Below are positions 18,102-64,000 of a DNA stretch of 64,000 bases, in pieces. The DNA lies in NCBI RefSeq assembly GCF_965237845.1, contig NZ_OZ250154.1:195121-259120 (forward strand), read 5' to 3'. The notes below the pieces were generated by a model that did no database searches, was not told the origin of the DNA, and was given only the letters and a program-made list of their open reading frames with translations. The position numbers and the translations under genes were made by a program. Every line of letters starts with the position of its first letter. Positions within the stretch are counted from its first letter, which is position 1. The stretch is from Candidatus Spongiihabitans sp. (GTDB lineage: Bacteria > Pseudomonadota > Gammaproteobacteria > Arenicellales > Poriferihabitantaceae).

Positions 18102-18839
18102 TTGGTATTTATGTATAAGCAGGTGTTGGATATGAAGCCACCCTGGGTAACCGATGTGGTTCGTGCCAAGCCTAAGAAAAATATCCCTGTGGTATTAACG
18201 CGTGCTGAGGTGGTACGGGTGTTGTCGCATCTAAAAGGGCGTTATTATTTAATGGGACAACTGCTTTATGGCGCGGGGCTGCGGTTAATGGAGGTGGTGC
18301 GGTTGCGCGTTAAGGATATTGATTTTGGTTATAAATCGATTATTGTGCGTGATGGCAAGGGCAATAAAGATCGAGTAGTGATGTTGCCTGGTAAATTGAT
18401 TAAACCTTTACAAAGCGTTTTAAAAGAGCGCAAGCAGGTGTTTGATCAAGATTTAGCGAATGGTGTAGGCAGTGTTTATCTGCCTAATGCCCTGGCTAAA
18501 AAATATCCCAATGCTCAGAATGAGTGGATTTGGCAATTTGTATTTGCCTCACCGAATCTGTCAGCAGACCCGCGTACCGGTGTTGTGCGCCGTCATCATA
18601 TTTATGATCAATCTATTCAAAGAATGATTAAGCAGGCAACGCGTGATGGGCGCATTAGCAAAAAAGTCAGCCCGCATACTTTACGGCATTCTTTTGCTAC
18701 GCATTTATTAGAAACCGGTTATGATATTCGCACTATTCAAGAATTACTTGGGCATAAACATGTTGAGACTACGATGATTTACACGCATGTATTAAAACAA
18801 GGTGGGCAAGGGGTGCAAAGTCCATTAGATGTCTTATGA
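18102..18839 (+). pseudogene. intI: Integron integrase IntI, 5'-truncated (about 85-90 N-terminal residues missing)
   Basis: 245 aa collinear with the C-terminal three quarters of IntI1. It includes the integron-specific insertion [42 protein letters not shown] and the catalytic R...K...HTLRHSFAT...LLGH...MIYTHV. The frame is closed by TAG at 18090. Confidence 0.85.
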
Positions 18840-42307: not shown

Positions 42308-45300
42308 TTACTGCTGCGCTAATACGATTTGCCAACTATCGTCTCTGAGGGTTCGGTTCACCTGAAACCGGTGGTCAAGCTTGCTTGCCACCTCGGCAGC
42401 GGGTTTTTCTTGTGGGCTAGATAATTCCAGTGCCAGGGTTTCGGTCATTATATATTTACGGTGCTGTTGCAATGCTTCCAGGACTCGGGCGGTGCCGGTG
42501 ATTTCGAGCGCAATGCGATCCGAGATTTCCAGACCGGCGGATTTACGCGCGTCTTGCACAGTGCGCACCAGTTCGCGTGCCAAGCCTTCGATAATCAAGG
42601 CATGGTCAAGAGACGTATCCAAAGCAACCAGACAACCGTCGGCGCTACTTGAGACATAGCCTTCAGCCGATGTGGTTTGCACCTGGATATCTTCAGGCTC
42701 AAATTCTATGCATCGTCCATCAATTTCAAGTTCAACATTCCGGTTCTGCTGCACCTGCCTGGCAATTACGGCACTGTCTGCGCTTGCCAGCGCGGCTTTG
42801 ATGGCGGGCATGAGTTTTCCGTGGCGCCGGCCCAATCGGGGGAAGTTTGGAGCGACTGTGAAGCTTACCACTTCGGCGTCGGATTCAATGAACTCCACCG
42901 TCTTGACATTCAACTCTTCACGGATTTGGTGAATATGCTTGTGTGCAGCACGCTTCATGGATTTACCCTGCAGGCACTTCGCATCGGTAACGCATACCAG
43001 GATACGAGACAATGGTTGACGCACTCTGACTCGGCTTTGTTCGCGAGCAGAACGCCCCAATCCAACGATGGTTTGCACAACATCCATCTCGAACACCAAT
43101 GCATCGTTAAGACGGACCGGATCAAATTCTGGCCATGGTGTCAGGTGCACACTTGGTTTTGCCTGGTCATCGCACTTGCACAGATTTTGATAAATCGCCT
43201 CGCTCAGGAAAGGCATAAAGGGCGCGACGATACGTTGCGCTATATTCAAGCACTCGTACAGGGTCAGGTAAGCCGATTGTTTGTCATCGCCGTCATCGCT
43301 CTTCCAGAATCGCCGGCGATTTCTTCGCACATACCAGTTGCTAAGCTGGTCTATCAGTTTCTCGATAGCCTGCCCGGCAGCAAAAGCATCGTAGTTGTCC
43401 AACGTTTCTGTTACGGTTTTTACGGTTTGATGTGCCAGGGCTAAAATCCATTGATCGATTTCCGGTCGGGAATCGCAGGCAACCTCTCTTTTCAGGTCAA
43501 CCGAATCCAGCCGCGCATAAAGCACGAAAAACGAATAGGTATTCCAAAGCGTGTTAACGAAGGTGGCGGCGACTTCTCTGACAATATCTATCGATATTCT
43601 TTTTTGCGCGTCCGGCGCGGTGCGCGCCAGAAACAACCAACGCAATGCATCCACGCCGACGCTGTCAAAAACATCATATGGATTAACGATATTTCCCTGC
43701 GACTTTGACATCTTCCTGCCGTGTTCGTCAACAATATGGCTAAGGCAAACACAGTTTTTGTATGCCACGCTGTCATCAACCAAGGCAGCAATGGCGTGCA
43801 GCGTATAAAACCATCCGCGGGTTTGGTCAATTGCCTCACAAATATAATCGGCCGGGAAATGCTTCTCGAATATTTCCTGATTCTCAAACGGGTAATGCCA
43901 CTGCGCGTAGGTCATGGCGCCGGAATCAAACCAGCAATCAATCACTTCCGGTACCCGGCAGTACTCGCGCCCCTTTTTTGTAAATTTTATCTGATCGATT
44001 TGAGGGCGGTGTAAATCCACATCGGTTAGCGATTGGCCGGTTAGCGTCTCTAATTCCTGTACTGAGCCAACGCAAACAAAATCGCCTTCTCCGTCGCTCC
44101 ACAGCGGCAGTGGCGTACCCCAAAAACGCTCCCGGGACAGCGCCCAATCGATATTGTTTTCCAGCCAGTTTCCAAAACGCCCATCGCGAATAGTTTCGGG
44201 AACCCAGTTTATGGTTTTGTTAAGGGCAACCATTCGCTCTTTAATAGCGGTGGTTTTGATATACCAGGCTTCCTTGGCGTAGTAGATCAGCGGATCGCCG
44301 GTGCGCCAACCGAAAGGGTAGCTGTGCCAGGTTTTTTCTTCGCGAAACATCAAGCCGCGTTCGGTTAGCAGCTTGTTGATAATCGGGTCGGCGTTCTTGA
44401 AAAATAATCCGGCAACCGGCGTAACTTCTGCCACAAAGCAACCGTCCAGGCCGACGCCGTGAAGCACGGGCAAGCCTTCGCGTTCAGCCAATTCCAGGTC
44501 ATCGACGCCGTAGGCAGGCGCAGTGTGAACGATGCCGGTGCCCTCTTCGGTGCTAACGAAATCCGCGGCAACCACACGGAAGCAGTCATCAGATTCCACC
44601 GTCAAGTAATCAAAAAGACGGTGATAGCGCCTGCCGACCAGCGCCGAGCCTTTCACGGTTTTTACGATTTCATATGACGCTTCAGCAAAATATGCCTGCG
44701 CTCGGGACTGTGCCAGAACGAGCGTTTCATTATTGCAGCGAACATAGGCGTAGTCGATGTCAGAACCAACGGCAACCAGCAGATTGGATGGCAGTGTCCA
44801 GGGTGTCGTGGTCCAGACTAAAAGCGCAGCAGGCCCCTCATTTTCCATGCCGTCTTCCAGGAGAAAGCGCACCGTAATTGAAGGATCTTCAACTTCCTTG
44901 TAGCCCTGCGCCACTTCGTGGGATGACAGCGTGGCGCCAATTCGCGGATCATATGGCACCACTTTATAGCCTTTGTATATCAAACCCTGGTCCCAAATTC
45001 GCTTTAACAAATTCCAGGTTGACTCGATGTATTGGTTGTCCAGCGTATAGTAGGCTTGGTCGAGGTTCACCCAATATCCCATGCGCCGCGTCATCTGCTC
45101 CCATTCGCCGATGTAAGTCATTACCGATTCCCGACAACGCCGGTTAAATTCAGCAACGCCGACCCGGCGTTCGATTTCTTTCTTGTCAAAAATGCCGAGT
45201 TGCTTTTCTATTTCATGCTCCACCGGCAACCCGTGGGTATCCCAGCCGCCCTTGCGCGGCGCATAGTAGCCGCGCATGGTTTTGTAGCGGGGATAAATGT

Positions 45301-45529
45301 CCTTGAACGCGCGCGCCAGCACATGATGGATTCCCGGCTTGCCATTTGCGGTGGGCGGGCCTTCGTTGAAACTAAACCGTGGTTTGTCCGCGCTTTGCTC
45401 AAGGGATTTTTCAAAAATCGAATGCTCTTCCCAAAACCTGAGTATGCGCTGTTCCAGTTCCGGCCCGTTGTAGCGGCCTTGCACTTCATCAAAAACCGGC
45501 GCTTCAACAATGTTTTTTTCGTCAGACAT
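42308..45529 (-). CDS. ileS: Isoleucine--tRNA ligase, type 2 (long, eukaryote/actinobacterial-like form)
   Basis: 1073 aa with FNEGPPTANGKPGIHHVLAR and KMSKSQGN. The length and N-terminal signature fit IleS2 rather than the roughly 940-aa IleS1. Confidence 0.9.
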   Translation of the reverse strand: MSDEKNIVEAPVFDEVQGRYNGPELEQRILRFWEEHSIFEKSLEQSADKPRFSFNEGPPTANGKPGIHHVLARAFKDIYPRYKTMRGYYAPRKGGWDTHGLPVEHEIEKQLGIFDKKEIERRVGVAEFNRRCRESVMTYIGEWEQMTRRMGYWVNLDQAYYTLDNQYIESTWNLLKRIWDQGLIYKGYKVVPYDPRIGATLSSHEVAQGYKEVEDPSITVRFLLEDGMENEGPAALLVWTTTPWTLPSNLLVAVGSDIDYAYVRCNNETLVLAQSRAQAYFAEASYEIVKTVKGSALVGRRYHRLFDYLTVESDDCFRVVAADFVSTEEGTGIVHTAPAYGVDDLELAEREGLPVLHGVGLDGCFVAEVTPVAGLFFKNADPIINKLLTERGLMFREEKTWHSYPFGWRTGDPLIYYAKEAWYIKTTAIKERMVALNKTINWVPETIRDGRFGNWLENNIDWALSRERFWGTPLPLWSDGEGDFVCVGSVQELETLTGQSLTDVDLHRPQIDQIKFTKKGREYCRVPEVIDCWFDSGAMTYAQWHYPFENQEIFEKHFPADYICEAIDQTRGWFYTLHAIAALVDDSVAYKNCVCLSHIVDEHGRKMSKSQGNIVNPYDVFDSVGVDALRWLFLARTAPDAQKRISIDIVREVAATFVNTLWNTYSFFVLYARLDSVDLKREVACDSRPEIDQWILALAHQTVKTVTETLDNYDAFAAGQAIEKLIDQLSNWYVRRNRRRFWKSDDGDDKQSAYLTLYECLNIAQRIVAPFMPFLSEAIYQNLCKCDDQAKPSVHLTPWPEFDPVRLNDALVFEMDVVQTIVGLGRSAREQSRVRVRQPLSRILVCVTDAKCLQGKSMKRAAHKHIHQIREELNVKTVEFIESDAEVVSFTVAPNFPRLGRRHGKLMPAIKAALASADSAVIARQVQQNRNVELEIDGRCIEFEPEDIQVQTTSAEGYVSSSADGCLVALDTSLDHALIIEGLARELVRTVQDARKSAGLEISDRIALEITGTARVLEALQQHRKYIMTETLALELSSPQEKPAAEVASKLDHRFQVNRTLRDDSWQIVLAQQ

Positions 45530-45679
45530 GAATCAAATACTTTTCTTTATCCAAACTTCAATACTGCCTGATATTTAATCCCTCTGGCACCTTTTTGCAC
45601 TCGATATGGGAATGTCCCTTGGTGCCTTAAAGCAGGCAGGAAATGAGAACCGGCTGGGCGGGGGATTTAGCCAAAACGG

Positions 45680-46540
45680 TCATTGCGAAACGAGTTGCTC
45701 GATCAAACGTCGATGTTGCGGTTTGATGTGCATGCGCTCGTGAAAGGGCTTCTTCTTATGGCATACGCAACAAAGCGGTTCTAAGTTGTTCGACTCATTG
45801 TTGCCACGGTTGCCATCTATATGGTGGACATGGAGCAGGTTGTGGTGGTCTGACAAATCAACGAGGCAGTCTTTGCATTTCCAGTTTGCTCTAATACGCA
45901 AGTCCTCAGATATGCGTGCCCAATCTGATGTGTAATTGCCCTCTGGAAAATTGTCTGGGTTGTAGAGCGGACGGCATTGGAAAACGGGCTCATAATTCTT
46001 GAAGAACAATTGGATGTCGAAATCGTTCTGAATCAACTTTCGCTCTGAAAGTGTCTTTTCTTCAAAACCGTCATAGTTCAGAAACTTTAGACAGTTCTGA
46101 CATGGGGCGAGTTTGGATATCATTTCGTCCCCCCTCGTCTGTGTTTCACGATCCCAAGGCTCAACCCGGAAATCACCATCTGCCTCAGCAGTGGAGACAT
46201 ATCGATCGAAACGGCCTCTCTGCCGCATTTCATTAAGCGTCAGACAATCAGCAACGTGGTATCGGGGCGCAGAGGTAGGAATTTGCTGTAAGTCGTCAAG
46301 GGACACAAAAGGCTGGAAAATGTGAAGAGTAATTTGTGTATTTCCAATGGCGGCAATACCAGCAGGGAAACGCAAAACCTCATCTAGTTCCTCTCCAGAC
46401 AAAATCAGGGAACCCTGCTCCAAAATTGTAATTTCAATTGGACTGCGACCCGTGATTCTAATGTTATCGACTTTAGCTTTCGAAGCGTTGATGGACTCCA
46501 TAGCCCGTTCAAGGCGCTGAAAATTGATGTCCAGTTTCAT
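45680..46540 (-). CDS. zorE: ZorE-like HNH endonuclease (type II Zorya effector)
   Basis: 286 aa with a C-terminal HNH motif, HVHHIDGNRGNNESNNLEPLCCVCHKK. Its start overlaps the zorB stop. Confidence 0.7.
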   Translation of the reverse strand: MKLDINFQRLERAMESINASKAKVDNIRITGRSPIEITILEQGSLILSGEELDEVLRFPAGIAAIGNTQITLHIFQPFVSLDDLQQIPTSAPRYHVADCLTLNEMRQRGRFDRYVSTAEADGDFRVEPWDRETQTRGDEMISKLAPCQNCLKFLNYDGFEEKTLSERKLIQNDFDIQLFFKNYEPVFQCRPLYNPDNFPEGNYTSDWARISEDLRIRANWKCKDCLVDLSDHHNLLHVHHIDGNRGNNESNNLEPLCCVCHKKKPFHERMHIKPQHRRLIEQLVSQ

Positions 46541-47286
46541 CAGATCCTCTTCTCGATTGCAGGTGCTACCCTGTCCAAAATCTGAAACATCGCCTCTTTC
46601 GTCTTGGTTCGGATCGTAAATTCAACGCGACGAGACCGCTTTTTGTTCTCGATATTATCCTTAATTATCAATTGAGCAGAGGAGAGACCATTCGCGCTAA
46701 CAGTTTTCCTCATCCACGGATTGAGAGGCTTCAGATCCAGAATATCCATTGAAAATCTCAGAACCGTTCGCGTCCGCTCTTGCGACAGTCCCATATTTCG
46801 AATGAATGCTTCGGTTGCACTCACGCTGCTTGACCACTCTGATGATGTATGCCCTTCAATTCTGACCTCTTTAATTTCATCGATGAAATTGTCGTGAAGC
46901 AACTTGATGTAACGAGGCATAAAATCAAGAAGTATTTCCTGAAATCGTTGTTCCAGATCGGATCTTCCTGCATGGAAAAGAACCTCGGGAGAGAGAAACC
47001 GAATGGTCAGTGTCTCTTTCTCAATTTCGGCATTCCATTTTGGCAAGTCATCTTCAAATTCGTTTTTCAAGGCGAAGTAGATAGCGAGCTCGGAATCCTG
47101 CCACTCGGTCACAATCTCGGTGACGTTTTTCGCCCGCTGATTTGCATCTTTAGCGTAAATAACCGCGATAAGAAGGAAGATCATCATCAAGCCAGCCATT
47201 AAATCTGAGACTGAAATCCAGCTGTCCTTATCGTCCCCTTGTGGTGACGAGAAGATATTATTCATTGCGGTTGGACTTTTTCCCAA
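46540..47286 (-). CDS. zorB: ZorB-like MotB/OmpA-family stator protein
   Basis: TM helix with the conserved Asp (SVSDLMAGLMMIFLL). OmpA-like C-terminus (IRIEGHTSSEW...LSQERTRTV...RRVEFTIR). The real start is probably the ATG at 47265, overlapping the zorA end. Confidence 0.75.
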   Translation of the reverse strand: MGKSPTAMNNIFSSPQGDDKDSWISVSDLMAGLMMIFLLIAVIYAKDANQRAKNVTEIVTEWQDSELAIYFALKNEFEDDLPKWNAEIEKETLTIRFLSPEVLFHAGRSDLEQRFQEILLDFMPRYIKLLHDNFIDEIKEVRIEGHTSSEWSSSVSATEAFIRNMGLSQERTRTVLRFSMDILDLKPLNPWMRKTVSANGLSSAQLIIKDNIENKKRSRRVEFTIRTKTKEAMFQILDRVAPAIEKRI

Positions 47287-48838
47287 TTTCTACAATCCGA
47301 CGGGTCGCATCCAAAAGCGGCGTATAGTCAGCAACGAATTTCTCGGTAATCCCGGACAAACTCTCAGCCATTGCGCGAATCACACTCTCAATTTCATCTT
47401 GCATCGCCTCGTCAAGTTGGACTATGGTTTCGTTCATTTGGCTAGTGGCATTCGAAATTGTCTCGTTGAAAGATGTTTGAAGACCACCAAGCATTTCGCG
47501 TTGAACGGTTCTCTGATCAGCAATTGTCGTTTCTAGATGTTCTGTTATTCCGGCAGAAGCATTTGTCACAGATGCGGATAGTTCTTGAGAAATTTTGATG
47601 ACTTCCGCATGAAGATATTGGCCAGCAGTTGATAGCTCTGAAACGAGATCCTTGCTTATTTGATCAACGTCGCTTTGAAGACTGAGAGTTGTCTCGGATG
47701 TCGTGGAACGTAATTCCTCGAAACCTTGTAACAATTTCTCGTTAGATTCTTTTTGTAGAGAGACCAGGCTTTCACAATTTGCAGCAATCTCTTTCACGAC
47801 ACCTGTTTGATGCTCAACTGTAGAGCTTAGATTAACTGTGATGTCTTCAATATTTTTCTCTATTTCAGGAAACGCATGGATCGCTTTATCTCTCATCTCT
47901 GCGAAACCACCCAAAGACTCCTCTATTTTCTCGATTTGAGAATTTAGGGCGCTGTTAGCTTGTTCCATTTTGGTCAAGTGATCTGGTAACTTTGACGCAG
48001 ACACTTCGATGTCCCCGAGTGCTTTTTTGCTCTCCTGGATGCCTTCAACTGCGTTGTCTAGGGCGATTTTAAGTTCTGACATTTGTTGTCTATATTCATC
48101 TTGCCAATCGACAAGACGGCCAACAGCTACATTGAGTTGCTTGAAGTTCTCTCCAAACTGCTCAGAAAGTGTTTCATTGAACTCTCGAATTACGGCTTGA
48201 AGTTCTTCTATAATGGCCTTGGAAAAAGCTTCTGACATATGCTCGGCAAAGACTTTAAACTCTTTGACCTGATCCTCAAATCCGTGGCGGGTAGTGCTCT
48301 CAAGGTCGCCGACGTTAGTGCGTAATCTTTGTAGTTGGCCGACAATGCTACTGTCTTTGTCATCAGTTAGAGCGTTTCGTAGATTCTCAAAACCCGCGCT
48401 ATTTGCTTCTGCCGCCTTATTGATTGAAGCATCAAGTTGAATCAGCTGATCAACAATGTCTTTCGCGGACGCATCCTCTCTGCCTACGCTCTCCCGGGTA
48501 ATTACAGGGCTGACCAAACGGAAGGAAACCGCCGCGAATAGACCGAGAATAGAAGTTCCAAATGCAACCTTAAGTCCCTCTAAGAGCATGGGAACAGATC
48601 GGTTGATAGTCCGGATGTCGAAATCCAGGAGGCCAAGAAAGATGCCGACAAATGTGCCTAGGATGCCTAGAGAAGTCAGGGTGCCGGGTGCATTTGATAC
48701 CAGCGCCCTTATCTTTGTGTTGGTGGAGTTAACCAGGAGTAAGGCAAATACAAAGTAAACAGCTATGACTATTGAGAATAATTGGCTGAAGTCATTCGCC
48801 CACAATGCAACAAGCATCCTTCCAATCGAATCAAACAT
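47258..48838 (-). CDS. zorA: ZorA-like MotA/ExbB-family channel protein with a long helical tail
   Basis: 526 aa. N-terminal TM helices with LGILGTFVGIFLGL and LKVAFGTSILGLF (MotA/ExbB signature), followed by about 400 aa of heptad-like, charged helical sequence. Confidence 0.75.
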   Translation of the reverse strand: MFDSIGRMLVALWANDFSQLFSIVIAVYFVFALLLVNSTNTKIRALVSNAPGTLTSLGILGTFVGIFLGLLDFDIRTINRSVPMLLEGLKVAFGTSILGLFAAVSFRLVSPVITRESVGREDASAKDIVDQLIQLDASINKAAEANSAGFENLRNALTDDKDSSIVGQLQRLRTNVGDLESTTRHGFEDQVKEFKVFAEHMSEAFSKAIIEELQAVIREFNETLSEQFGENFKQLNVAVGRLVDWQDEYRQQMSELKIALDNAVEGIQESKKALGDIEVSASKLPDHLTKMEQANSALNSQIEKIEESLGGFAEMRDKAIHAFPEIEKNIEDITVNLSSTVEHQTGVVKEIAANCESLVSLQKESNEKLLQGFEELRSTTSETTLSLQSDVDQISKDLVSELSTAGQYLHAEVIKISQELSASVTNASAGITEHLETTIADQRTVQREMLGGLQTSFNETISNATSQMNETIVQLDEAMQDEIESVIRAMAESLSGITEKFVADYTPLLDATRRIVEIGKKSNRNE

Positions 48839-48945
48839 CTACACCGCCCATTATAAGTTATAAATAGTATACATTAACTGTCCTGACTCAACCCTATCGA
48901 CCTCATGATGGGATTGTCCGGGCTCAGAGACATACGAGACTATAG

Positions 48946-49059
48946 GGCGGGATATCCAACTCAATTTCCCCAATATCAATGCAATTTCGCGGTTGCCCGC
49001 ACCACACCCGATACGATTAACGCATGGCCATCCCGCTCAGCATGCCTGCGGTATGGGCG
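48946..49059 (-). pseudogene. Orphan copy of the 3' end of the rhomboid protease gene plus about 30 bp downstream
   Basis: Aligns to 55591-55704 at roughly 80-85 percent identity by eye. It encodes ...ALIVSGVVRATAKLH versus ...ALIVSGVVRVTAKLH. Confidence 0.8.
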
Positions 49060-49096
49060 CATCTGGCGGCGGGCGGTTTTTTCGCCGGGTAAATTT

Positions 49097-49798
49097 TTAT
49101 TTCTTGCGCGGCGGCGCGTAGGCGCCGATTTTGCTGGTGGAAAGCCCGGCGCCGACAATCGCCTCGCACATTTTCAGCGCACAGACAACGCCGTCTATCA
49201 CCGGAACGCCGCATTTTTGTGTCAGTTCCGTCGCCAAATCGGCCATGCCGGCGCATCCTAAAATCACCGCTTCGCAACGGTCCTCGGCGATGGCGCGCCG
49301 CGTCTCTTGTTCAATTTTTTTCGCCGCTGCGCCGCTGTCTTCCTGCTCCAGAGCCAGCACCGGTATTTCCGCCGCGCGCACGTTCTTGCACAGATGCGCC
49401 ATGCCGTAGCGTCGCGCGGCCTGTTCAATAATCGGTGTGGAACGCCCCAGCGTGGTCACTACGGAAAACGACGTCGCCAAAGTCGCCGCGATGTGCATCG
49501 CCGCCTCGCAAATGCCCAGCACCGGGCCGGTCACAATCTCCCGGCAGGCGCCCAGCCCCGGGTCGTCAAAACAAGCGACGACATAAGCGTCCGCGCCCCA
49601 CCTTTGAGCCTTTTTTATCTCGCGCAGCAAGCCGGCTAGAGATGCCGCTTCGTCGTAGTGCCCCTCAATGCTGGGCGGTGCGTCTGCCGGGTTCGCCGCT
49701 AAAATTTCCGTGCCGGGCGCGGCGGCTTTGCGCGCCGCCTGCCGCACTTTGTCAGTCATTGACGCGGTGGAATTCGGGTTAATAAGGGCTATTTTCAT
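49097..49798 (-). CDS. Asp/Glu/hydantoin racemase family protein
   Basis: 233 aa, MKIALINPNST...VVACFDDPGL...ILGCAGM pattern (two catalytic Cys regions). GC-rich. Confidence 0.75.
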   Translation of the reverse strand: MKIALINPNSTASMTDKVRQAARKAAAPGTEILAANPADAPPSIEGHYDEAASLAGLLREIKKAQRWGADAYVVACFDDPGLGACREIVTGPVLGICEAAMHIAATLATSFSVVTTLGRSTPIIEQAARRYGMAHLCKNVRAAEIPVLALEQEDSGAAAKKIEQETRRAIAEDRCEAVILGCAGMADLATELTQKCGVPVIDGVVCALKMCEAIVGAGLSTSKIGAYAPPRKK

Positions 49799-50406
49799 GC
49801 CGTGTCTCCTCCGAGATATAATTTGCGAATGCGATCATCGTTCTGCAGATCCGCCGAATTGCCGCTGATAACAATCTCGCCGGTTGTCAGCGCGTAAGTC
49901 CGGTGGGAAATTCTCATCGCCATGCGCGAGTTTTGTTCCACCAAAATCACCGATACATGATCATCCCGATTGATGGCGACAATGGAACGGGCGATACTTT
50001 GCACAAGTTTGGGCGCGATCCCTAAAGACGGCTCGTCCAGCAGCAGCACTTTCGGACGCGACATCAGTGCTCGTCCGATAACCATCATTTGTTGCTCGCC
50101 GCCGCTCAGCGTCGATGCCGACTGGTGAAACCGCTCCCTCAGCCGCGGAAATTTTTCCAGCACTTTGTGCAGATCTTCGGCGATTCCCGCCTTGTCCTTG
50201 CGTGTAAACGCGCCCATCAACAGATTATCTTTCACACTCATATACGGAAACACGTGCCGCCCCTCCGGGGCCATGGAAATGCCGGCGCCGTTCGCGCCGA
50301 TGAGGGCGATTGTCTCGCCCTCGTCCAGATGCAAAGACACATCGCGCAGGGCATGGACGTGGTCGTAAAACAGCGACACGTTTTTTAGGGACAGCAATTC
50401 AGACAT
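49795..50406 (-). CDS. livF: LivF-type ABC ATPase with an internal in-frame deletion removing the Walker A lysine (probably inactive)
   Basis: LIGANGAGISMAPEGRHVF. In E. coli LivF about 37 residues (KTTLL...AIV) lie between GANGAG and PEGR. The signature LSGGEQQ and Walker B LLLLDEPS are retained. Confidence 0.7.
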   Translation of the reverse strand: MSELLSLKNVSLFYDHVHALRDVSLHLDEGETIALIGANGAGISMAPEGRHVFPYMSVKDNLLMGAFTRKDKAGIAEDLHKVLEKFPRLRERFHQSASTLSGGEQQMMVIGRALMSRPKVLLLDEPSLGIAPKLVQSIARSIVAINRDDHVSVILVEQNSRMAMRISHRTYALTTGEIVISGNSADLQNDDRIRKLYLGGDTA

Positions 50407-50408
50407 GC

Positions 50409-51188
50409 TTAGATCCCGGTCTCGTCGTCTTCCGCGCCGAGATACGCCTCTATCACTTTCGGATTTTCCTGAATTTCGGCCGGTGCGCCTTCGGCGATTT
50501 TCTCGCCGAAGTTCAACACGACAATGCGGTCGGAAATGCTCATCACCGCCCGCATGTCGTGTTCCACCAGCAACACGGTCACGCCGCGGTTGCGCACCTC
50601 GCGCACCATGTTCAAAGCCCGTCCGGTCTCGTCGTGGTTCATCCCGGCAAAAGGCTCGTCCAATAGCAGCACCGATGGATTCGTGGCCAAGCCGATGGCG
50701 ATGCCCAAGGCGCGCAGATGCCCGTGTGGCAGCGTGCTGGCGATTTCGTTTTTAATGCTGTCCAAGCCCAAAAAATCCAAAATCCCGTCGGCGGATTCGC
50801 CGAACGCGGCCTCGTCCTTGGATGCTCGCCGCGAGTGCAGATAAAAACCCAGCAAACTCGCCTGGGAGCGCAGATGATGCGCGATAATCACATTGTCGCG
50901 CGCCGTCATGTTGCGGAATATCGTCGTCTCTTGAAAAGTACGCACCACTCCCATCCGCGCGACAGTATGTGGCTTCAAGCCGGAAATCCGCCTGCCGCGC
51001 AACAGCACTTCGCCTCGCGTCGGGCGCAAAAAAGAGGAGATGAGCTTAAATAACGTGGATTTGCCGGCGCCATTCGGGCCGATAACGGACAATATCTCGC
51101 CCTCCAGTGTGTGAAAACTGACGTTATTTACCGCCAGCAATCCGCCAAAGCGGCGCGTTAATCCCCTGATTTCCAGCAATTCGGGCAT
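50409..51188 (-). CDS. livG: LivG-type branched-chain amino acid ABC transporter ATPase
   Basis: 259 aa with GPNGAGKST, LPHGHLRALGIA and LLLLDEPFAGM. Confidence 0.85.
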   Translation of the reverse strand: MPELLEIRGLTRRFGGLLAVNNVSFHTLEGEILSVIGPNGAGKSTLFKLISSFLRPTRGEVLLRGRRISGLKPHTVARMGVVRTFQETTIFRNMTARDNVIIAHHLRSQASLLGFYLHSRRASKDEAAFGESADGILDFLGLDSIKNEIASTLPHGHLRALGIAIGLATNPSVLLLDEPFAGMNHDETGRALNMVREVRNRGVTVLLVEHDMRAVMSISDRIVVLNFGEKIAEGAPAEIQENPKVIEAYLGAEDDETGI

Positions 51189-51206
51189 GCTCTGTTTTCC
51201 TTGTGG

Positions 51207-52178
51207 CTATTTTCTCCGCGGCAGACGCAAACTCAACAAGCCGTTCGGCAAAAACAGTATCAGCGCAATCAGCGCCGACGAAAAAATCAACAGTTGATAG
51301 GCGCCCGTCTTAAACAGAAAATCCCAGCCCATATACAGCACCAGCGTCCCCAGCATCGGCCCAAACACATAATTGAGTCCGCCCAGAAAACAGTAAAGCA
51401 TGAAATTCACCGACTCCTGAATCTGAAAAGTGGCGGGATAAATAGACTGCACAATCGCGGCAAAAATCGCCCCGCCGACTCCCCCGAGAAAAGAGGAAAT
51501 CGCGTATGCCAAGATACGCAAATAGGCGACATTAACGCCGATGGAAGATGCCAGCTCCTCGTTTTGCTGTAGCGAACGGCATAAAACCCCCAGCCGCGAA
51601 TTGACCAGCCGCCACATGGCGGCGAAGCACAAAATCATCAGCACCACGGCCAGATAATAAAAACCGAGGCGCAGGTTTCCCAATTCCGCAAAATCGGGAA
51701 TCAGCGTCAGCCCAAAAAGTTCCACGCCGCCAGGCGGCGGAATGTTGGTGATGCCCCGCGGGCCGTTGGTGATCGATAGCGCCTGCGCTAAAAGACGCGC
51801 CACCTCGGTCAGCGTCAGCGTCACCATCGCAAAATACACGCCGCGCAAGCGCAAAATGGGCAGGCCGATCAGTACGCTCGCACCAGCGCAAAAAAGCCCG
51901 GCAAGCGGCAACGTCCACCAAAACAGCACGCCGTATTTGACCACCAAAATCGCCGACACATAGCCGCCCATCAGCGCGTAGGCGCCCTGCCCGATATTGA
52001 TTCGCCCGATGAAAAAAGTCAGCCACACGCCGGCACTGATGACGCTCAACAGTGCCACCGATGTCAGCACGCTGATTAAATCGCCGCGCTCGGTTTGAAT
52101 CAACAGCCACGGCACAGCCGCCAGTACCGCGAAAAGAAAAACACCGGTGCCGATAGCGGTTTTTATGTTATTCGTCAT
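51207..52178 (-). CDS. livM: LivM-type ABC transporter permease
   Basis: 323 aa polytopic protein in the conserved position between livH and livG. Confidence 0.8.
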   Translation of the reverse strand: MTNNIKTAIGTGVFLFAVLAAVPWLLIQTERGDLISVLTSVALLSVISAGVWLTFFIGRINIGQGAYALMGGYVSAILVVKYGVLFWWTLPLAGLFCAGASVLIGLPILRLRGVYFAMVTLTLTEVARLLAQALSITNGPRGITNIPPPGGVELFGLTLIPDFAELGNLRLGFYYLAVVLMILCFAAMWRLVNSRLGVLCRSLQQNEELASSIGVNVAYLRILAYAISSFLGGVGGAIFAAIVQSIYPATFQIQESVNFMLYCFLGGLNYVFGPMLGTLVLYMGWDFLFKTGAYQLLIFSSALIALILFLPNGLLSLRLPRRK

Positions 52179-52182
52179 GCCG

Positions 52183-53055
52183 TCAGCCCCATGGCTTACC
52201 CATCAGTCCATGTGGACGTATGCTGAGAAACACCATCAGGCTAGCGAAAATCACCAAATAAGTAATGTCGCCGTAAGCGCGCAGATAAGACAGCCCGAAA
52301 GACTCCATTATGCCCAAGATAAAGCCGCCAGCGATGGCGCCGGGCACCACGCCGGCACCGCCGATCATCACCATCAAAAACGCCTTGATGGAGACCGAAC
52401 CGCCGATGCCGGAACTGACCCCGGTAATGGCGACCAACAGTCCGCCGGCAATGCCGGCCAGCATCGCGCCCAGTGCAAAGCCCAACATTCCGTATCGATC
52501 GGTCGACACGCCCATCAGTTGCGCCGCGGTGCGGTCTTGCGCCAGCGCCCGCATCGCGCGCCCGGGCTTGGTGTATTGCATGAAGAGGATGAAGGTGACA
52601 ATCAGTAGTGCGGTACACACGCCGATCACGATTTTATCATTGGGGGTGACCACAGTAAAATCGCCCCAGTTTTGCACGCCTTCCATAGTTTTCGGTACGC
52701 CGTGCTGTTTTTGCCCGAACAGCAGCAAAATGACGCTGTCAAAGAAAAAAGCCAGCCCGGCCGCCAGCAACATCGAACTTTCTTCGCGCACGCTTTTTTT
52801 CAGTACCGGGCGGAACAAAAACTTCTCCACCACCGCGCCCACCGCCAACAAAGTCAGCGCCGACGTCGCCAGCCCGAGCGCAAAGGGCATCCCCAGCTTT
52901 GCGTAAACAAGATACGTCATATAGCCACCCAGCACATACATTTGTCCGTGCGCGAAGTTGAGCACGTTCATCAGCGCGAAAATAAGTGTTAATCCGAGCG
53001 CGATCAGCGCGTATTGCGCGCCCAGATACAGCCCGGTGACGAGAATTTGCTCCAT
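52183..53055 (-). CDS. livH: LivH-type ABC transporter permease
   Basis: 290 aa, LNFAHGQMYVLGGY motif. Confidence 0.8.
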   Translation of the reverse strand: MEQILVTGLYLGAQYALIALGLTLIFALMNVLNFAHGQMYVLGGYMTYLVYAKLGMPFALGLATSALTLLAVGAVVEKFLFRPVLKKSVREESSMLLAAGLAFFFDSVILLLFGQKQHGVPKTMEGVQNWGDFTVVTPNDKIVIGVCTALLIVTFILFMQYTKPGRAMRALAQDRTAAQLMGVSTDRYGMLGFALGAMLAGIAGGLLVAITGVSSGIGGSVSIKAFLMVMIGGAGVVPGAIAGGFILGIMESFGLSYLRAYGDITYLVIFASLMVFLSIRPHGLMGKPWG

Positions 53056-53121
53056 AACCGGAAAACCGCGAGTTAAACAAAGAAAAAGCCCGCCATGCGG
53101 GCTTTTCCTGTGCGTCGAGGA

Positions 53122-54261
53122 CTAATCGACGTTAGTCACAAACAGGGTTTGGAATTCGCCATCGCGATATTCGTTCACCACCATCGGGATGCCAACCTGC
53201 CGTTTCTGCCCGAAAGACGTGGAACCGACATACACCAATTTTTCGTTGCCTTTCATATACGGATTCGGCACGGAAAGCGTGTCCATCGTTTTTTGGAACT
53301 CTGTCACGTCATCAATGGCTTTCGGATTGGCTTTGAGCGTTTCCAAAATATATTCCATGGCATACACCTTGGTGTTGGACTCGTCGTCATACTGCCCGTG
53401 ATCCTGGGTGTAGCGGCGGATGAATTCCTCCATCCTTTCGGAGCGAATCTCCGGCGTGGACGCGCCGCCGACTGAAATAAAGCCATTCGCTAGATCGCCA
53501 GCGCCTTCTTTCAGCTGCGTGGCATCCTGTGCGGTTTCAGAGGACATCAGCCCGGTGTAGCCCAGCTCCCTGGCGGCGCGGATGATCAGCGGCGCGGTGC
53601 CGCCGGCGACGCCGGAGAGAACCAGCAAATCAGGCTTGAGTTTGACGATCTGGGTGACCGCTGGCGCGAAGTCTCGGGTGTCGCTTTGATAAGCGTCCTG
53701 CGCCAGCACTTTCAAATCAAGTGCTTGGGCGGCTTGCACACCGCCTTCGCGCTGGCTCAGCGCGTCCGATTCATTTGCCGCCAAAAAAGCGATGGATTTG
53801 ATGCCTTTGTTTTCTTTCAGGTATTTGTAGATCGCCGGCCCGGATTGGTAGTTGGCGATCATCCCCAAAATGGCGTTGGAAGCCGGCTTGGAATACAACT
53901 CCTTGGGAAAAGCGTAGGGAAAATACATCACGCCGTCTCTTTCCGCCACCGGGCGCACCGCCGCGGCGGTGGGGTCGGTGTTCGGGCCGATGACATAATG
54001 AATGCCCTCTTGCACCATTTTTTCCATGCCCTCGCGAGCGCGGGTGGTGTTGTCCTGGGTATCCCAGGTCACGATTTCGATATCGTAAGTGGTGCCGCCG
54101 ATTTTGATGCCGCCTTCATCGTTCACCCACTTGGCGCGCGTTTGCATGCAGCGGACATTGGAAATGCCCCATGCGGCCTTCGCGCCGCTGGTGATGCCGA
54201 CAAAACCGATTTTGAGCGTTTCATTGGCGTTGGCGACAGGCGCAAGCCCTAGGGACAACAT
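53122..54261 (-). CDS. LIV-type periplasmic substrate-binding protein; the signal peptide region appears frameshifted
   Basis: The 379-aa ORF begins in the middle of a signal peptide (MLSLGLAPVANA/NETLKIGF). Upstream in frame is ...KYQKLTFAFGIAS with no start. An ATG at 54296 is out of frame by one base in an A-run. Confidence 0.7.
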   Translation of the reverse strand: MLSLGLAPVANANETLKIGFVGITSGAKAAWGISNVRCMQTRAKWVNDEGGIKIGGTTYDIEIVTWDTQDNTTRAREGMEKMVQEGIHYVIGPNTDPTAAAVRPVAERDGVMYFPYAFPKELYSKPASNAILGMIANYQSGPAIYKYLKENKGIKSIAFLAANESDALSQREGGVQAAQALDLKVLAQDAYQSDTRDFAPAVTQIVKLKPDLLVLSGVAGGTAPLIIRAARELGYTGLMSSETAQDATQLKEGAGDLANGFISVGGASTPEIRSERMEEFIRRYTQDHGQYDDESNTKVYAMEYILETLKANPKAIDDVTEFQKTMDTLSVPNPYMKGNEKLVYVGSTSFGQKRQVGIPMVVNEYRDGEFQTLFVTNVD

Positions 54262-54433
54262 TGAGGCTATGCCAAAAGCGAACGTCAGTTTTTGATATTT
54301 TGCATTTTATTTGACTCCTATGAATTGATTTATGAATTGAGAGGGGTAGCGCACGCGAATGCGCCCTCCTCCATATCATGGATTATAAACGAAAATCGTT
54401 AAAGATGGTAATTTAATGTATAGGTCTGTGGAT

Positions 54434-54800
54434 TCAACCCTGAAGTGCAACAGAGGGTGGTATGCCGAATAGCGCTTGATTTGGCGTTTTCAGTCCAAGA
54501 CATTTGCGTGGTCGGTTGTTGAGTTGCGCACCACCCGCGCCAGTTGCGAGGTCTTGATGGTCGCAAGATCATTAGTCTTGGGAAAGCGCTGCCGTATCAG
54601 TCCATTGGTATTCTCATTGGCGCCGCGCTGCCAAGGTGCACAGGGATGGGCGAAGTGAAAATCGCTTTTCAGGACACCGGCAACCGCCTCATGATCGGTG
54701 AATTCGCTGCCATAGTCCGAGGTCAACGTGAGAACCTGATGTTTGATGGGGGCAGGATTTCCGACCAACGACCGCCTACCACACGCGCTGTTCCATTGGG
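54434..54800 (-). mobile_element. IS30-family transposase remnant (C-terminal third, frameshifted)
   Basis: TSDYGSEFTDHEAVAGVLKSDFHFAHPCAPWQRGANENTNGLIRQRFPK, then in another frame LNNRPRKCLGLKTPNQALF. The N-terminal two thirds are absent. Confidence 0.75.
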
Positions 54801-54804
54801 CAGC

Positions 54805-55340
54805 AGCTGCTCAGGCAAAGGCAAAGCGCGAGCATGGGTCAATAAAGGTGAACACATAGCGACGGATGCCGTCGCGCAGCCGCTCCACGGTGCCGCAGGC
54901 GAACAGATCCAGCGGGGCGGCGTGTTTTGCGGGTTTGGCGTAGCGGTTTGCGCCGTCCGCGGGTGTCAAGGCGTAGTAGGGCGCAGCGCATTTTATCGGG
55001 GGCGGCTTTGGATGATGCGGCCGATGGCGGAGATGCCCGGCGGTGTCATCCCCCGCTCTTCCACCGCCTGATGAGCGCCGACAGGGGCAGCTTGCCGAGG
55101 TTCGGATAGACCCCGCGCAAGTGCCGCACCTGGCCCGCCAGTTCGGGCGGCCAAGTCGCATGGCGGCGGCGTTTGAGCGCTCTTGAGGGGGGGGGGCTAC
55201 GCCGGGGTATGGGGGTTCGTTTGCGGGTCTAGCGCCAGCGGCGCAAGGTTCTGCGACTGACCTTGAATGCATCACAGGCGGCGGCGTAGGCTTGCTGAAA
55301 GCGAAGGGCGTTGATTCGGGATTGGGCAGGGTCGTTCATC
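54805..55340 (-). mobile_element. Degraded rve/DDE transposase remnant (IS481-like), multiple frameshifts, 3'-truncated by the IS30 remnant
   Basis: Pieces in different frames: MNDPAQSRINALRFQQAYAAACDAFKVSRRTLRRWR, WPPELAGQVRHLRGVYPNLGK, and GTVERLRDGIRRYVFTFIDPCSRFAFA (first D region). G10 run at 55187-55196. Confidence 0.6.
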
Positions 55341-55619
55341 TCCGAACGATGCCCGAGCCCGGCAACGCGGTAAAACCCCTGATACGGTGGCCTATATGCT
55401 GGATTTGCAAGGTCTCACCTCATGGGTGGAGGTGTGCCATATGTTTCTGAGCTTATGCAATTAACGCCTCCCCTTATTTTTGCTCGTCAAATTATTCCAT
55501 GTATTGAACCCTGTTGACAAAGGGACAATCAGCGTTCCAACGGTGCAGGTCTATTTCCAGGGGAAGTGTTAGGTGTATGAACTAACTGCAGGGCAGGATA
55601 TCCAACACAATTTTCCTGC

Positions 55620-56237
55620 TCAATGCAATTTTGCGGTTACCCGCACCACACCGGATACGATTAACGCGATTGCTATTCCGCTCAGCAGACCTGCGGTATG
55701 GGCGGTATTGGCCACAACCAGCCCGAATAGTTTTTCGAGTATTCCCGACCAGCAAATTAAAAACAAGCCCAACATCAATTTAACGATCACCGGGTTTAGA
55801 CGTATTCCGAACCCCGGGTTGGTCAGGCTTTGTATCCAGACATATCCAAAATAACCGTAAATAACCCCGGACATGCCACCAAAAAAGGGCCCCGACACAA
55901 AATACTGCGCCAAATTGGAGACCACGCTGACCGCCAATGTCAGCGCACCCAATACCCCCATTCCCTGGCGCCATTCAATCAGTCGGCCGAGTTCCCAGGT
56001 CCACAGCATGTTAAAAACGATGTGAAAAATACCGGAGTGCAAAAACACAGGGGTAACCAAACGCCAGTATTGGCCGCCGAAGATTTCAGGCAGCGTCGGT
56101 TTGATGGATTCGGAAATGAGCAACGGCGTAGCGATAGTGTGCTGGTTAATCACGTTCATCAACAAATAAACCATAACGGATATCGTTACCATAGCGATAG
56201 TAAGCGGCGGATGCTTGGGAATCATGCCGGGAATCAC
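55620..56237 (-). CDS. Rhomboid family intramembrane serine protease
   Basis: 205 aa with HSGIFHIVFNM and GGMSGVIYG (catalytic Ser) ...HTAG (His) motifs. Confidence 0.85.
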   Translation of the reverse strand: MIPGMIPKHPPLTIAMVTISVMVYLLMNVINQHTIATPLLISESIKPTLPEIFGGQYWRLVTPVFLHSGIFHIVFNMLWTWELGRLIEWRQGMGVLGALTLAVSVVSNLAQYFVSGPFFGGMSGVIYGYFGYVWIQSLTNPGFGIRLNPVIVKLMLGLFLICWSGILEKLFGLVVANTAHTAGLLSGIAIALIVSGVVRVTAKLH

Positions 56238-63706: not shown

Positions 63707-63815
63707 GAGACCTTTGCATAATTCAAAATACTATCGGAAGTGGGACTTTAGTCCCGCCATCGGCAATCATCTTGCGCGGCTAAAGCCGCACTTCCGGTAA
63801 TTATGCAAAGGTCTC
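63707..63815. repeat. 109-bp nested palindromic element (MITE/REP-like or structured RNA)
   Basis: The outer 17-bp arms GAGACCTTTGCATAATT / AATTATGCAAAGGTCTC enclose CGGAAGTG...CACTTCCG. Those in turn enclose two small hairpins, GGGACTTTAGTCCC and GCGGCTAAAGCCGC. Confidence 0.85.
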
Positions 63816-64000
63816 AAGTAATCTGTAGCGGTGATACACGTGACGATTGGCGGCTACAAAATAAGGGCGATAATGATGGCGATGACAAAGCCGGTTACAA
63901 TAGTGCCAGTGATGCTTTTAAGTGGGTTCATATTTTAAGCTCCGGAAGATTGGGTTGAAAGTCAATGCAACCTGAATTAACGGTAAGGGTGCCGTCTGTG

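What the first reader, a model, noticed from the sequence alone, without database searches (positions are those of the whole stretch)
45680..48838. Three-gene ZorA-ZorB-ZorE operon (type II Zorya-like anti-phage system)
Three overlapping, co-directional genes are present:
- The first encodes a MotA/ExbB-like channel protein with a roughly 400-aa helical tail.
- The second encodes a MotB-like protein with the TM aspartate and an OmpA-like peptidoglycan-binding domain.
- The third encodes a protein ending in an HNH nuclease motif.
This is the architecture described for type II Zorya (Doron et al. 2018). The N-terminal roughly 200 aa of the ZorE-like protein have no domain I can recognise. The locus lies between ileS and an island integration hotspot.
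Basis: partly seen in the sequence, partly recalled or inferred. Interest (0 to 1): 0.7.

Follow-up and report, generated by a model that had tools for sequence, protein, structure and literature searches.

The report
Type II Zorya anti-phage operon (zorABE)
These three genes are an intact but divergent copy of an already characterised bacterial anti-virus system, type II Zorya (a membrane ion-driven motor plus a DNA-nicking enzyme), sitting on a small horizontally acquired insert next to the ileS gene.

Summary
Three translationally coupled minus-strand ORFs fill 45680-48838: zorA (526 aa), zorB (241 aa from ATG 47265) and zorE (286 aa).

- **Classification.** PADLOC profiles call them ZorA2, ZorB2 and ZorE2 (E 3e-91, 1e-84, 6e-70). 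ZorA and ZorB match the solved type II ZorA5B2 complex 8VVI (E 1e-40, 3e-43).
- **Residues.** The tested ZorB Asp, three tested peptidoglycan-binding residues, and 10 of 12 mutated ZorE residues are identical. One further residue is a conservative K-to-R change.
- **Synteny.** zorA-zorB-zorE order recurs in 74 of 80 genomes.
- **ZorE N-terminus.** The "unrecognised" N-terminal region is DUF8245 (PF26739), which has a conserved His/Cys3 zinc site. This ZorE is the short form without the C-terminal extension.
- **Context.** Two related genomes have rhomboid followed directly by ileS, so Zorya lies on a 3.4 kb insert (45548-48959). A 6.6 kb island flanked by 120-nt repeats lies beside it.
- **Mobility.** A near-identical strain carries a much more divergent allele (dS 0.4-0.7 against 0.04-0.07 in the flanks; dN/dS about 0.2). 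A Halieaceae MAG carries the cassette with an ileS fragment between IS elements.

This is a new, divergent member of a known system, and of modest interest. No defence phenotype was tested.

The parts
47258..48838 (-). zorA (ZorA2-type), 526 aa. It has three N-terminal transmembrane segments forming the MotA/ExbB-like channel, followed by a ~410-aa helical cytoplasmic tail.
   Evidence: PADLOC ZorA2 E 3.1e-91 and 1.4e-89, the latter full length. NCBIfam best hit is ZorA2 at E 8e-58. PDB 8vvi chain F E 1.4e-40. 27% identity over the full length to an annotated E. coli ZorA2. Hydropathy. Helical secondary structure (low-confidence model).
46540..47265 (-). zorB (ZorB2-type), 241 aa from the ATG (an alternative TTG start lies at 47286). 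It has a single transmembrane helix with Asp21 and a C-terminal OmpA-like peptidoglycan-binding domain.
   Evidence: PADLOC ZorB2 E 1.4e-84. PDB 8vvi chain A E 3.1e-43, with the Asp aligned to D21. 44% identity to E. coli ZorB2, with D24=D21, H141=H139, S143=S141 and R215=R212 conserved (residues tested in PMC11890865).
45680..46540 (-). zorE, 286 aa, short form. It has an N-terminal DUF8245 with a putative Zn site (H95, C99, C147, C150) and a C-terminal HNH nuclease (H240, N252, H261, H267; Zn CxxC at 222/225 and 257/260). It has no C-terminal extension.
   Evidence: PADLOC ZorE2 E 6.2e-70. PF26739 annotated on all close homologs, and named DUF8245. Invariant columns in alignment A1. Residue map to E. 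coli ZorE. AF2 model pLDDT 86.6.
45548..48959 (.). A 3412-nt accessory insert carrying zorABE, defined relative to the empty rhomboid-ileS junction in a related genome.
   Evidence: blastn of L084 against the window: L084 13793|13794 correspond to window 48960|45547. L084 and L085 have rhomboid followed directly by ileS. GC is 43-46% here, against 49-53% (ileS) and 55-59% (ABC island).
48839..48959 (-). Region upstream of zorA inside the insert. It contains a TATAAT hexamer at 48855-48850, 11 nt before the ATG, that is conserved in the Halieaceae cassette.
   Evidence: Sequences. The homology with L001 starts at 48862. The consensus scan called no sigma-70 promoter here, so promoter function is only an inference.
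48939..49059 (.). Direct-repeat copy of the rhomboid 3' end. Its partner is at 55585-55704. Together they bracket the neighbouring 6.6 kb ABC-transporter/racemase island.
   Evidence: the repeat finder families D1, D3 and D5, spacing about 6645 nt, 84-94% identity. Alignment A2.

Best explanation
This is a complete, probably functional type II Zorya anti-phage system.

The following mechanism is inferred from the characterised E. coli and S. kujiense systems:
- ZorA and ZorB assemble into an inner-membrane ZorA5B2 ion-driven motor.
- ZorB is anchored to peptidoglycan through its OmpA-like domain and conducts ions through Asp21.
- The five ZorA C-termini bundle into a long cytoplasmic helical tail.
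- On phage attack, the activated motor signals through the tail and brings the soluble ZorE to the membrane.
- ZorE is built from DUF8245 plus HNH and is a Mg/Mn-dependent nickase. Its locally concentrated nicking of DNA stops phage propagation.

Shown here: family membership, conserved key residues, operon architecture, purifying selection, and the accessory and mobile nature of the cassette.

Inferred only: complex stoichiometry, nickase activity, recruitment, and the defence phenotype in this organism.
For: - **Profile matches.** PADLOC ZorA2, ZorB2 and ZorE2 at E 3e-91, 1.4e-84 and 6e-70. The best NCBIfam hits are the three type II Zorya equivalogs, at E 8e-58, 3e-59 and 1.5e-46.
- **Solved structure.** The type II ZorAB complex 8vvi matches at E 1.4e-40 and 3.1e-43, with the Asp aligned.
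- **Annotated reference.** Pairwise identity to an annotated E. coli zorA2/zorB2/zorE operon is 27%, 44% and 33%.
- **Tested residues.** ZorB D, H, S and R are conserved. In ZorE, H90, E99, Y109, Y189, H226, N234, N238, L239, H247 and H253 are conserved, and K231 becomes R (mutagenesis in PMC11890865 and PMC13192584).
- **Synteny.** zorA-zorB-zorE order holds in 74 of 80 ZorE-encoding genome loci. Three of the six exceptions are cut by a contig end.
- **Translational coupling.** The genes overlap by 8 nt and 1 nt.
- **Selection.** dN/dS is 0.15-0.24 for zorA and zorB and 0.23-0.52 for zorE across three alleles.
- **Mechanism in the literature.** PMC11890865 describes ZorA5B2, the requirement for peptidoglycan binding and the tail, and the ZorE nickase recruited to the membrane on infection. 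PMC11946911 covers tail signalling in type I.
Against: - Scores are far below NCBIfam's curated equivalog cutoffs (196/700, 200/400, 159/600). The system is therefore divergent from the tested E. coli one.
- ZorE lacks the ~90-aa C-terminal extension of E. coli ZorE. E. coli H235 is E249 here.
- No consensus promoter or terminator delimits the operon.
- A near-identical strain (L082) carries an in-frame stop in zorE. That contig has only 3x coverage.
- No phenotype data exist for this organism, which is an uncultured gammaproteobacterium.
Confidence: 0.88

Rival explanations
1. It is a type II Zorya by descent but works differently from the E. coli model. The short ZorE lacks the C-terminal nuclease-like extension and has a highly variable first ~60 residues. 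It could therefore be recruited or regulated differently, or have a different substrate preference. It would act as a stand-alone system with no Druantia III coupling.
For: - ZorE lengths are bimodal in 77 genome loci: about 264-313 aa against 339-402 aa. This one belongs to the short third.
- The extension is enriched in Druantia III-associated ZorE (PMC13192584, section read).
- No ORF in the window is long enough to be DruE; the largest are 1073, 1003 and 969 aa.
- ZorE residues 1-60 are only 57% identical between otherwise ~99% identical strains.
Against: - All residues that were essential for stand-alone Zorya II defence in E. coli are retained.
- PADLOC already has ZorE2 models for the short form (PDLC00642, 283 positions, E 1.2e-60).
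- The high divergence comes with high dS, so it is not evidence of adaptive change.
Confidence: 0.25
2. It is a decaying or inactive remnant of a Zorya II cassette that no longer defends.
For: - Scores lie below the NCBIfam equivalog cutoffs.
- zorE in the near-identical strain L082 is interrupted by a stop at the position of W220.
- The adjacent livF-like gene has suffered an in-frame deletion, so some decay is occurring in this region.
Against: - All three ORFs are full length. Their lengths fall inside the family ranges: ZorA median 555, ZorB 237, with a recognised short ZorE class.
- Catalytic, ion-conducting and peptidoglycan-binding residues are intact.
- dN/dS of about 0.2 indicates ongoing purifying selection.
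- The L082 stop sits in a 3x-coverage contig and may be a sequencing error.
Confidence: 0.07
3. It is not a defence system. It would be a MotAB, ExbBD or TolQR-type stator paralog serving motility, uptake or envelope functions, with an unrelated HNH gene next to it. Alternatively, it is a type I or type III Zorya.
For: There is distant homology to MotA/ExbB (Pfam MotA_ExbB E 0.0018, below cutoff) and to MotB/OmpA families (E 1e-4 to 4e-6). There are also weaker hits to ZorA1, ZorA3, ZorB1 and ZorB3.
Against: - The Zorya II profiles win by 40-75 orders of magnitude.
- ZorA has a ~410-aa C-terminal tail that MotA, ExbB and TolQ lack.
- HNH/DUF8245 ZorE is fused into the operon by a 1-nt overlap and co-occurs with ZorAB in 74 of 80 genomes.
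- The neighbours are ileS and a racemase, not flagellar, Ton/Tol, ZorC/D or ZorF/G genes.
Confidence: 0.02

Closest known systems
Type II Zorya of Escherichia coli (ATCC 8739-type zorA2-zorB2-zorE; annotated copy on plasmid NZ_CP127005, locus L081)
   Same: - It has the same three genes in the same order.
- ZorB is 44% identical, ZorE 33% and ZorA 27% over the full length.
- The ZorB Asp and the peptidoglycan-binding His/Ser/Arg are conserved.
- The ZorE N-terminal Zn-site His and the HNH catalytic residues are conserved.
   Different: - ZorE is 286 aa here against 367 aa, with no C-terminal nuclease-like extension.
- K231 becomes R and H235 becomes E.
- ZorA is 526 aa against 550 aa.
- Scores fall below the NCBIfam equivalog cutoffs.
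- There is no neighbouring Druantia III or ARMADA island. The cassette stands alone next to ileS.
Sulfuricurvum kujiense type II ZorA5B2 complex (PDB 8VVI; PMC11890865)
   Same: - ZorB aligns over residues 19-238 with the Asp at the same position, D21.
- The ZorA transmembrane core, the start of the tail and the last ~60 residues all align.
   Different: The S. kujiense ZorA is only 378 aa. The window's tail carries about 120-150 extra residues in the middle (query 338-460 is unaligned).
Zorya II cassette in a Halieaceae MAG (L001 = CBDFGK010000002.1; the same arrangement is seen in L083)
   Same: It is 90.5% identical at the nucleotide level over window 45310-48862. ZorA, ZorB and ZorE are 91%, 87% and 79% identical.
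   Different: It sits in an unrelated genomic context, between a split IS256-family transposase and an IS91-type Y2 transposase. It drags along only the first 73 codons of ileS.
Type I Zorya (ZorABCD; PMC11946911) and flagellar MotAB stators
   Same: They share the 5:2 ion-driven motor ancestry, the transmembrane Asp in the B subunit, an OmpA-like peptidoglycan anchor and, for type I, a long ZorA tail.
   Different: - There is no ZorC or ZorD here.
- ZorA lacks the large membrane-proximal elaboration of type I. PADLOC ZorA1 reaches only E 1e-16, and 8qyh-type chains only E 8e-5.
- The effector is an HNH nickase rather than a ZorD helicase-nuclease.

Membership tests
Type II Zorya (ZorA2-ZorB2-ZorE) | A ZorA of the type II family: a MotA/ExbB-like channel with a long C-terminal helical tail. 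| tested here: met
   PADLOC ZorA2 E 3.1e-91 and 1.4e-89, full length, against ZorA1 at 1e-16 and ZorA3 at 2e-12. 8vvi ZorA E 1.4e-40. About 410 tail residues predicted helical (low confidence).
Type II Zorya (ZorA2-ZorB2-ZorE) | A ZorB of the type II family with the ion-conducting transmembrane Asp and a peptidoglycan-binding domain. | tested here: met
   PADLOC ZorB2 E 1.4e-84. D21 aligns to D21 of 8vvi and D24 of E. coli. H139, S141 and R212 equal the tested H141, S143 and R215. E. coli R230 lies outside the alignment and was not assessed.
Type II Zorya (ZorA2-ZorB2-ZorE) | A ZorE effector made of DUF8245 plus an HNH nuclease with intact catalytic and zinc ligands. | tested here: met
   PADLOC ZorE2 E 6.2e-70. 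PF26739/DUF8245 on homologs. H240, N252, H261 and H267, the Cys pairs, and H95/C99/C147/C150 are invariant or nearly invariant in 35 sequences. Residues mapped to E. coli mutants.
Type II Zorya (ZorA2-ZorB2-ZorE) | The three genes are adjacent, co-directional and in the order A-B-E, without ZorC/D or ZorF/G. | tested here: met
   One search gives the coordinates. Overlaps of 8 nt and 1 nt. The neighbours are ileS and a racemase. The same order holds in 74 of 80 genome loci.
Type II Zorya (ZorA2-ZorB2-ZorE) | ZorA5B2 stoichiometry, ZorE nickase activity, and protection against phage. | not testable with these tools
   These need biochemistry, cryo-EM and phage challenge. They are known for the E. 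coli and S. kujiense systems (PMC11890865).
NCBIfam equivalogs NF041792 (ZorA2), NF041787 (ZorB2) and NF041791 (ZorE) | A whole-protein score at or above the curated cutoff. | tested here: not met
   196.2/700, 200.5/400 and 158.9/600 bits. These models are the best hits in the library, but the proteins are too divergent from the E. coli-centred seeds to be auto-named. This is an annotation threshold, not a defining feature of the system.
Flagellar MotAB, ExbBD or TolQR stators | Profile membership and a matching genomic context (flagellar, Ton or Tol genes), with no long C-terminal tail on the A subunit. | tested here: not met
   Pfam MotA_ExbB 18.5 bits, below the 22.9 cutoff. ExbB TIGR02805 E 0.056. 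MotB models reach 22-26 bits against cutoffs of 259-300. The context is ileS, a racemase and an ABC transporter.
Type I or type III Zorya | Presence of ZorC plus ZorD (type I) or ZorF plus ZorG (type III) next to ZorAB. | tested here: not met
   The only third gene is ZorE. The flanking genes are ileS and an Asp/Glu racemase. ZorA1, ZorA3, ZorB1 and ZorB3 profiles score far lower.

The most novel reading that the evidence does not exclude
The cassette may be an exchangeable 'allele' at a fixed chromosomal site. Under this reading, strains of one marine gammaproteobacterial population swap divergent zorABE versions by homologous recombination through ileS and the rhomboid-side flank. The most variable part, the first ~60 residues of the short-form ZorE together with the distal ZorA tail, would be a specificity or anti-defence-evasion module. 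This would imply a matched ZorA-tail/ZorE-N-terminus recognition code that has not yet been described.
Probability: 0.12. Interest if true: 0.45.

Novelty: new member of a known kind. Interest (0 to 1): 0.22.

Why it matters
The result confirms that a tool-free reading correctly spotted a defence system. It adds a divergent, short-ZorE type II Zorya from an uncultured marine gammaproteobacterium.

Two modest points go beyond annotation:

1. Three independent contexts for the same cassette give a clear natural example of how a small defence operon moves. These are an insert in the rhomboid-ileS spacer, a divergent allele at the same site in a ~99% identical strain, and an IS-flanked copy in a Halieaceae MAG that still carries 73 codons of ileS. 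The movement appears to involve both homologous replacement and IS-mediated capture.

2. The short ZorE class makes up about one third of genome loci. It retains every residue needed for stand-alone defence but lacks the extension linked to Druantia III synergy. It is therefore a natural minimal ZorE for structural or biochemical work.

None of this changes the understanding of Zorya.

Tried and rejected
- **tRNA and Rfam scans** of the whole window found nothing. There is no tRNA-type attachment site and no known RNA element at the locus.
- **Promoter and terminator scan** of 45200-49300 gave counts no higher than shuffled sequence. It called nothing in the two intergenic regions on the minus strand.
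- **Exact look-up of ZorE** in public assemblies found no record. The source genome could not be named. gltA homologs only place it among uncultured Gammaproteobacteria, with some relatives labelled Arenicellales.
- **Foldseek of the ZorE model** (pLDDT 86.6) against the PDB and the viral BFVD library gave no match with E <= 0.001. Named matches were mostly HNH nucleases, and the low-rmsd alignments covered only 40-100 columns. DUF8245 therefore has no detectable structural relative there.
- **PDB sequence search with ZorE** gave only a marginal ZRANB3 HNH hit, E 0.21.
- **blastn of the cassette against phage genomes** gave no match.
- **Single-sequence AF2 of ZorA** was low confidence (pLDDT 46). 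Only its secondary structure is used, and no tail length in nm is claimed.
- **Positive selection** as the cause of the high divergence between the window and L082 was considered and rejected. dS is raised 5-15-fold along with dN, and dN/dS stays at about 0.2.
- **Target-site duplication.** An apparent short direct repeat at the insert ends (ATTGAGTTGGATA / ATTGAAGTTTGGATA) was considered as a target-site duplication. One copy lies inside the 120-nt repeat that also follows the intact rhomboid gene. It may therefore be ancestral flank, and no claim is made.
Full report
**1. Observation**

One search lists three minus-strand ORFs that together occupy exactly 45680-48838:
- 47258-48838 (526 aa)
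- 46540-47286 (248 aa from a TTG)
- 45680-46540 (286 aa)

Reading the junctions directly shows that the zorA stop (TAA, 47260-47258) overlaps an in-frame zorB ATG at 47265 by 8 nt. The zorB stop (TGA, 46542-46540) shares its last base with the zorE ATG. This is a translationally coupled operon.

I prefer the ATG at 47265 as the zorB start, giving 241 aa. The ortholog in L082 was called at that length. This start also puts the transmembrane Asp at residue 21, as in the solved S. kujiense ZorB.

**2. Classification**

All three proteins were scanned against three profile libraries.

| Protein | PADLOC | NCBIfam best hit | NCBIfam score / cutoff |
|---|---|---|---|
| ZorA | ZorA2, E 3.1e-91 and 1.4e-89 (full length) | ZorA2, E 8e-58 | 196 / 700 |
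| ZorB | ZorB2, E 1.4e-84 | ZorB2, E 3e-59 | 200 / 400 |
| ZorE | ZorE2, E 6.2e-70 | ZorE, E 1.5e-46 | 159 / 600 |

The type I and III Zorya models, and the MotB, ExbB and TolQ models, score tens of orders of magnitude worse. All NCBIfam scores are well under the curated cutoffs, so this is a divergent member that PGAP would not auto-name.

Pfam sees only sub-threshold MotA_ExbB, OmpA and HNH signals.

The PDB sequence search finds the type II ZorA5B2 cryo-EM structure 8VVI, at E 1.4e-40 for ZorA and 3.1e-43 for ZorB.

**3. Functional residues**

I fetched an annotated E. coli zorA2-zorB2-zorE operon (plasmid NZ_CP127005, L081) and aligned each protein.

- **ZorB** is 44% identical. E. coli D24, H141, S143 and R215 are all required for defence or peptidoglycan binding (PMC11890865). 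They correspond to D21, H139, S141 and R212 here.
- **ZorE** is 33% identical. Of the residues mutated in PMC13192584, the following are identical:

| E. coli ZorE | This ZorE |
|---|---|
| H90 | H95 |
| E99 | E104 |
| Y109 | Y114 |
| Y189 | Y203 |
| H226 | H240 |
| N234 | N248 |
| N238 / L239 | N252 / L253 |
| H247 | H261 |
| H253 | H267 |

  K231 is R245 here, and H235 is E249.
- **ZorA** is 27% identical over its full length. It has a near-identical LGILGTFVGI motif in TM2.

In a 35-sequence ZorE alignment these columns are invariant or nearly invariant:
- H95, C99, C147 and C150, the N-terminal zinc site
- C222, C225, C257 and C260, the HNH zinc finger
- H237, H239, H240, N252, H261 and H267

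**4. The ZorE N-terminus**

Every close homolog carries PF26739, which is named DUF8245 and in PMC13192584.

An alignment-based AF2 model is confident (pLDDT 86.6). Foldseek finds no match with E <= 0.001 in the PDB or the viral library, and the named matches are mostly HNH nucleases. The fold therefore remains without a solved relative, although the family itself has a name.

This ZorE is the short form. In 77 genome loci, lengths are bimodal at about 264-313 aa and 339-402 aa. The long form's C-terminal nuclease-like extension is associated with Druantia III synergy. The window has no ORF of DruE size.

**5. ZorA anatomy**

Three hydrophobic segments lie within roughly residues 9-114. The remaining ~410 residues are predicted almost wholly helical. 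That model has pLDDT 46, so only the secondary structure is used.

The length of 526 aa lies inside the family range, where the median is 555. Compared with the 378-aa S. kujiense protein, residues about 338-460 are extra.

**6. Conservation of the system**

A scan of one genome per species returned 80 ZorE-encoding loci from many phyla. tblastn shows ZorA and ZorB immediately upstream of ZorE in 74 of them. Three of the six exceptions are cut by a contig end.

**7. Genomic context**

There is no tRNA, no Rfam hit, and no integrase next to the locus.

Two related genomes have the rhomboid gene followed directly by ileS, with nothing between them. Their gltA genes are 94% and 89% identical to the window's, and the spacers are 35 nt and 360 nt (L084, L085).

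blastn maps L084 13793|13794 to window 48960|45547. Zorya therefore sits on a 3412-nt insert, 45548-48959. Its GC content is 43-46%, against about 50% in ileS.

Immediately beside it lies a 6.6 kb island of 55-59% GC. This island carries a Liv-type ABC transporter and a racemase. It is bracketed by ~120-nt direct repeats (48939-49059 and 55585-55704) that duplicate the rhomboid 3' end.

**8. Mobility**

L082 and L086 come from a metagenome strain whose flanks are 98-99.5% identical to the window. That strain has the same arrangement, but its zorA, zorB and zorE are only 82-93%, 82-88% and 70-85% identical.

Nei-Gojobori estimates:

| Gene | dS (window vs L082) |
|---|---|
| zorA | 0.40 |
| zorB | 0.52 |
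| zorE | 0.69 |
| racemase (flank) | 0.04 |
| ileS (flank) | 0.07 |

dN/dS is 0.18-0.23. The excess divergence is therefore old variation brought in by recombination (allelic replacement), not positive selection. All alleles are under purifying selection.

Separately, a Halieaceae MAG (L001/L083) carries a copy 90.5% identical over window 45310-48862. That copy:
- ends after the first 73 codons of ileS
- is flanked by a split IS256-family transposase and an IS91-type transposase
- sits in otherwise unrelated DNA

The cassette was therefore captured from a genome where it already lay next to ileS.

**9. Mechanism**

This section is inferred from the literature. ZorA5B2 is a peptidoglycan-anchored, ion-driven 5:2 motor with a pentameric cytoplasmic tail. 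Ion flow, peptidoglycan binding and the tail are all required for defence. ZorE is a Mg/Mn-dependent nickase that moves to the membrane only during infection (PMC11890865; the tail-signalling concept comes from PMC11946911). Nothing in this locus contradicts that model, but none of it was tested here.

**10. Verdict**

It is a new, divergent member of a known and mechanistically characterised system, so interest is low to moderate. The added value is the defined insert boundaries, the evidence for cassette exchange and capture, and the assignment of ZorE to the short DUF8245-HNH class.

Noticed in passing
window 49795-50406 (minus strand): The livF-like ABC ATPase is 203 aa here and reads '...GANGAGISMAPEGRH...'. 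The orthologs in L082 and L086 are 241 aa. Relative to them the window lacks 105 nt in frame, removing the Walker A lysine and the following segment. The gene is probably inactivated.
   Followed up: partly
window 48939-49059 and 55585-55704, enclosing 49060-55584: A 6.6 kb high-GC (55-59%) island encodes a Liv-type ABC transporter and an Asp/Glu/hydantoin racemase. It is bracketed by ~120-nt direct repeats that duplicate the 3' end of the rhomboid gene. It is absent from the related genomes L084 and L085. No integrase was seen inside it.
   Followed up: partly
window 16690-17807 (minus strand), with 15495-16526 and 18102-18839: A low-GC (39-43%) islet carries strong matches to the PADLOC candidate defence pair PDC-M57B (E 3e-95) and PDC-M57A (E 6e-60; Pfam DUF6884). 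Beside them lie an HATPase plus DUF4325 (STAS-like) gene and a phage-integrase-family gene.
   Followed up: partly
window 4254-7265 (plus strand): A 1003-aa ORF matches a type IIG restriction enzyme-methyltransferase over its full length (PADLOC REase_MTase_IIG, E 2.9e-222). This is a separate defence gene about 40 kb from the Zorya locus.
   Followed up: no
L082 4612-5478: In the near-identical metagenome strain, zorE has an in-frame stop where the window has W220 (...RIRAN*KCKDC...). This is either a real pseudogene or an error in a 3x-coverage contig.
   Followed up: partly
L001 4377-5478 and 9027-10164 (same in L083): The Halieaceae MAG copy of the cassette is flanked by a frameshifted IS256-family (Transposase_mut) gene and an IS91-type Y2 transposase. 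It retains a 73-codon ileS fragment that ends in a new stop.
   Followed up: yes
window 63707-63823; L086 12313-12423 and 13331-13447: A ~115-nt sequence at window 63.7 kb occurs twice (97% identity) in the rhomboid-to-ABC-island region of the sister strain L086, but not at that place in the window. It may be a small mobile repeat.
   Followed up: no
window 42308-45529 (minus strand): IleS is the long form at 1073 aa. Its orthologs in L084 and L085 carry a C-terminal DUF5915 domain. Because of the Zorya insert, its original upstream region now lies 3.4 kb away. ileS must therefore be transcribed from within or through the insert.
   Followed up: no
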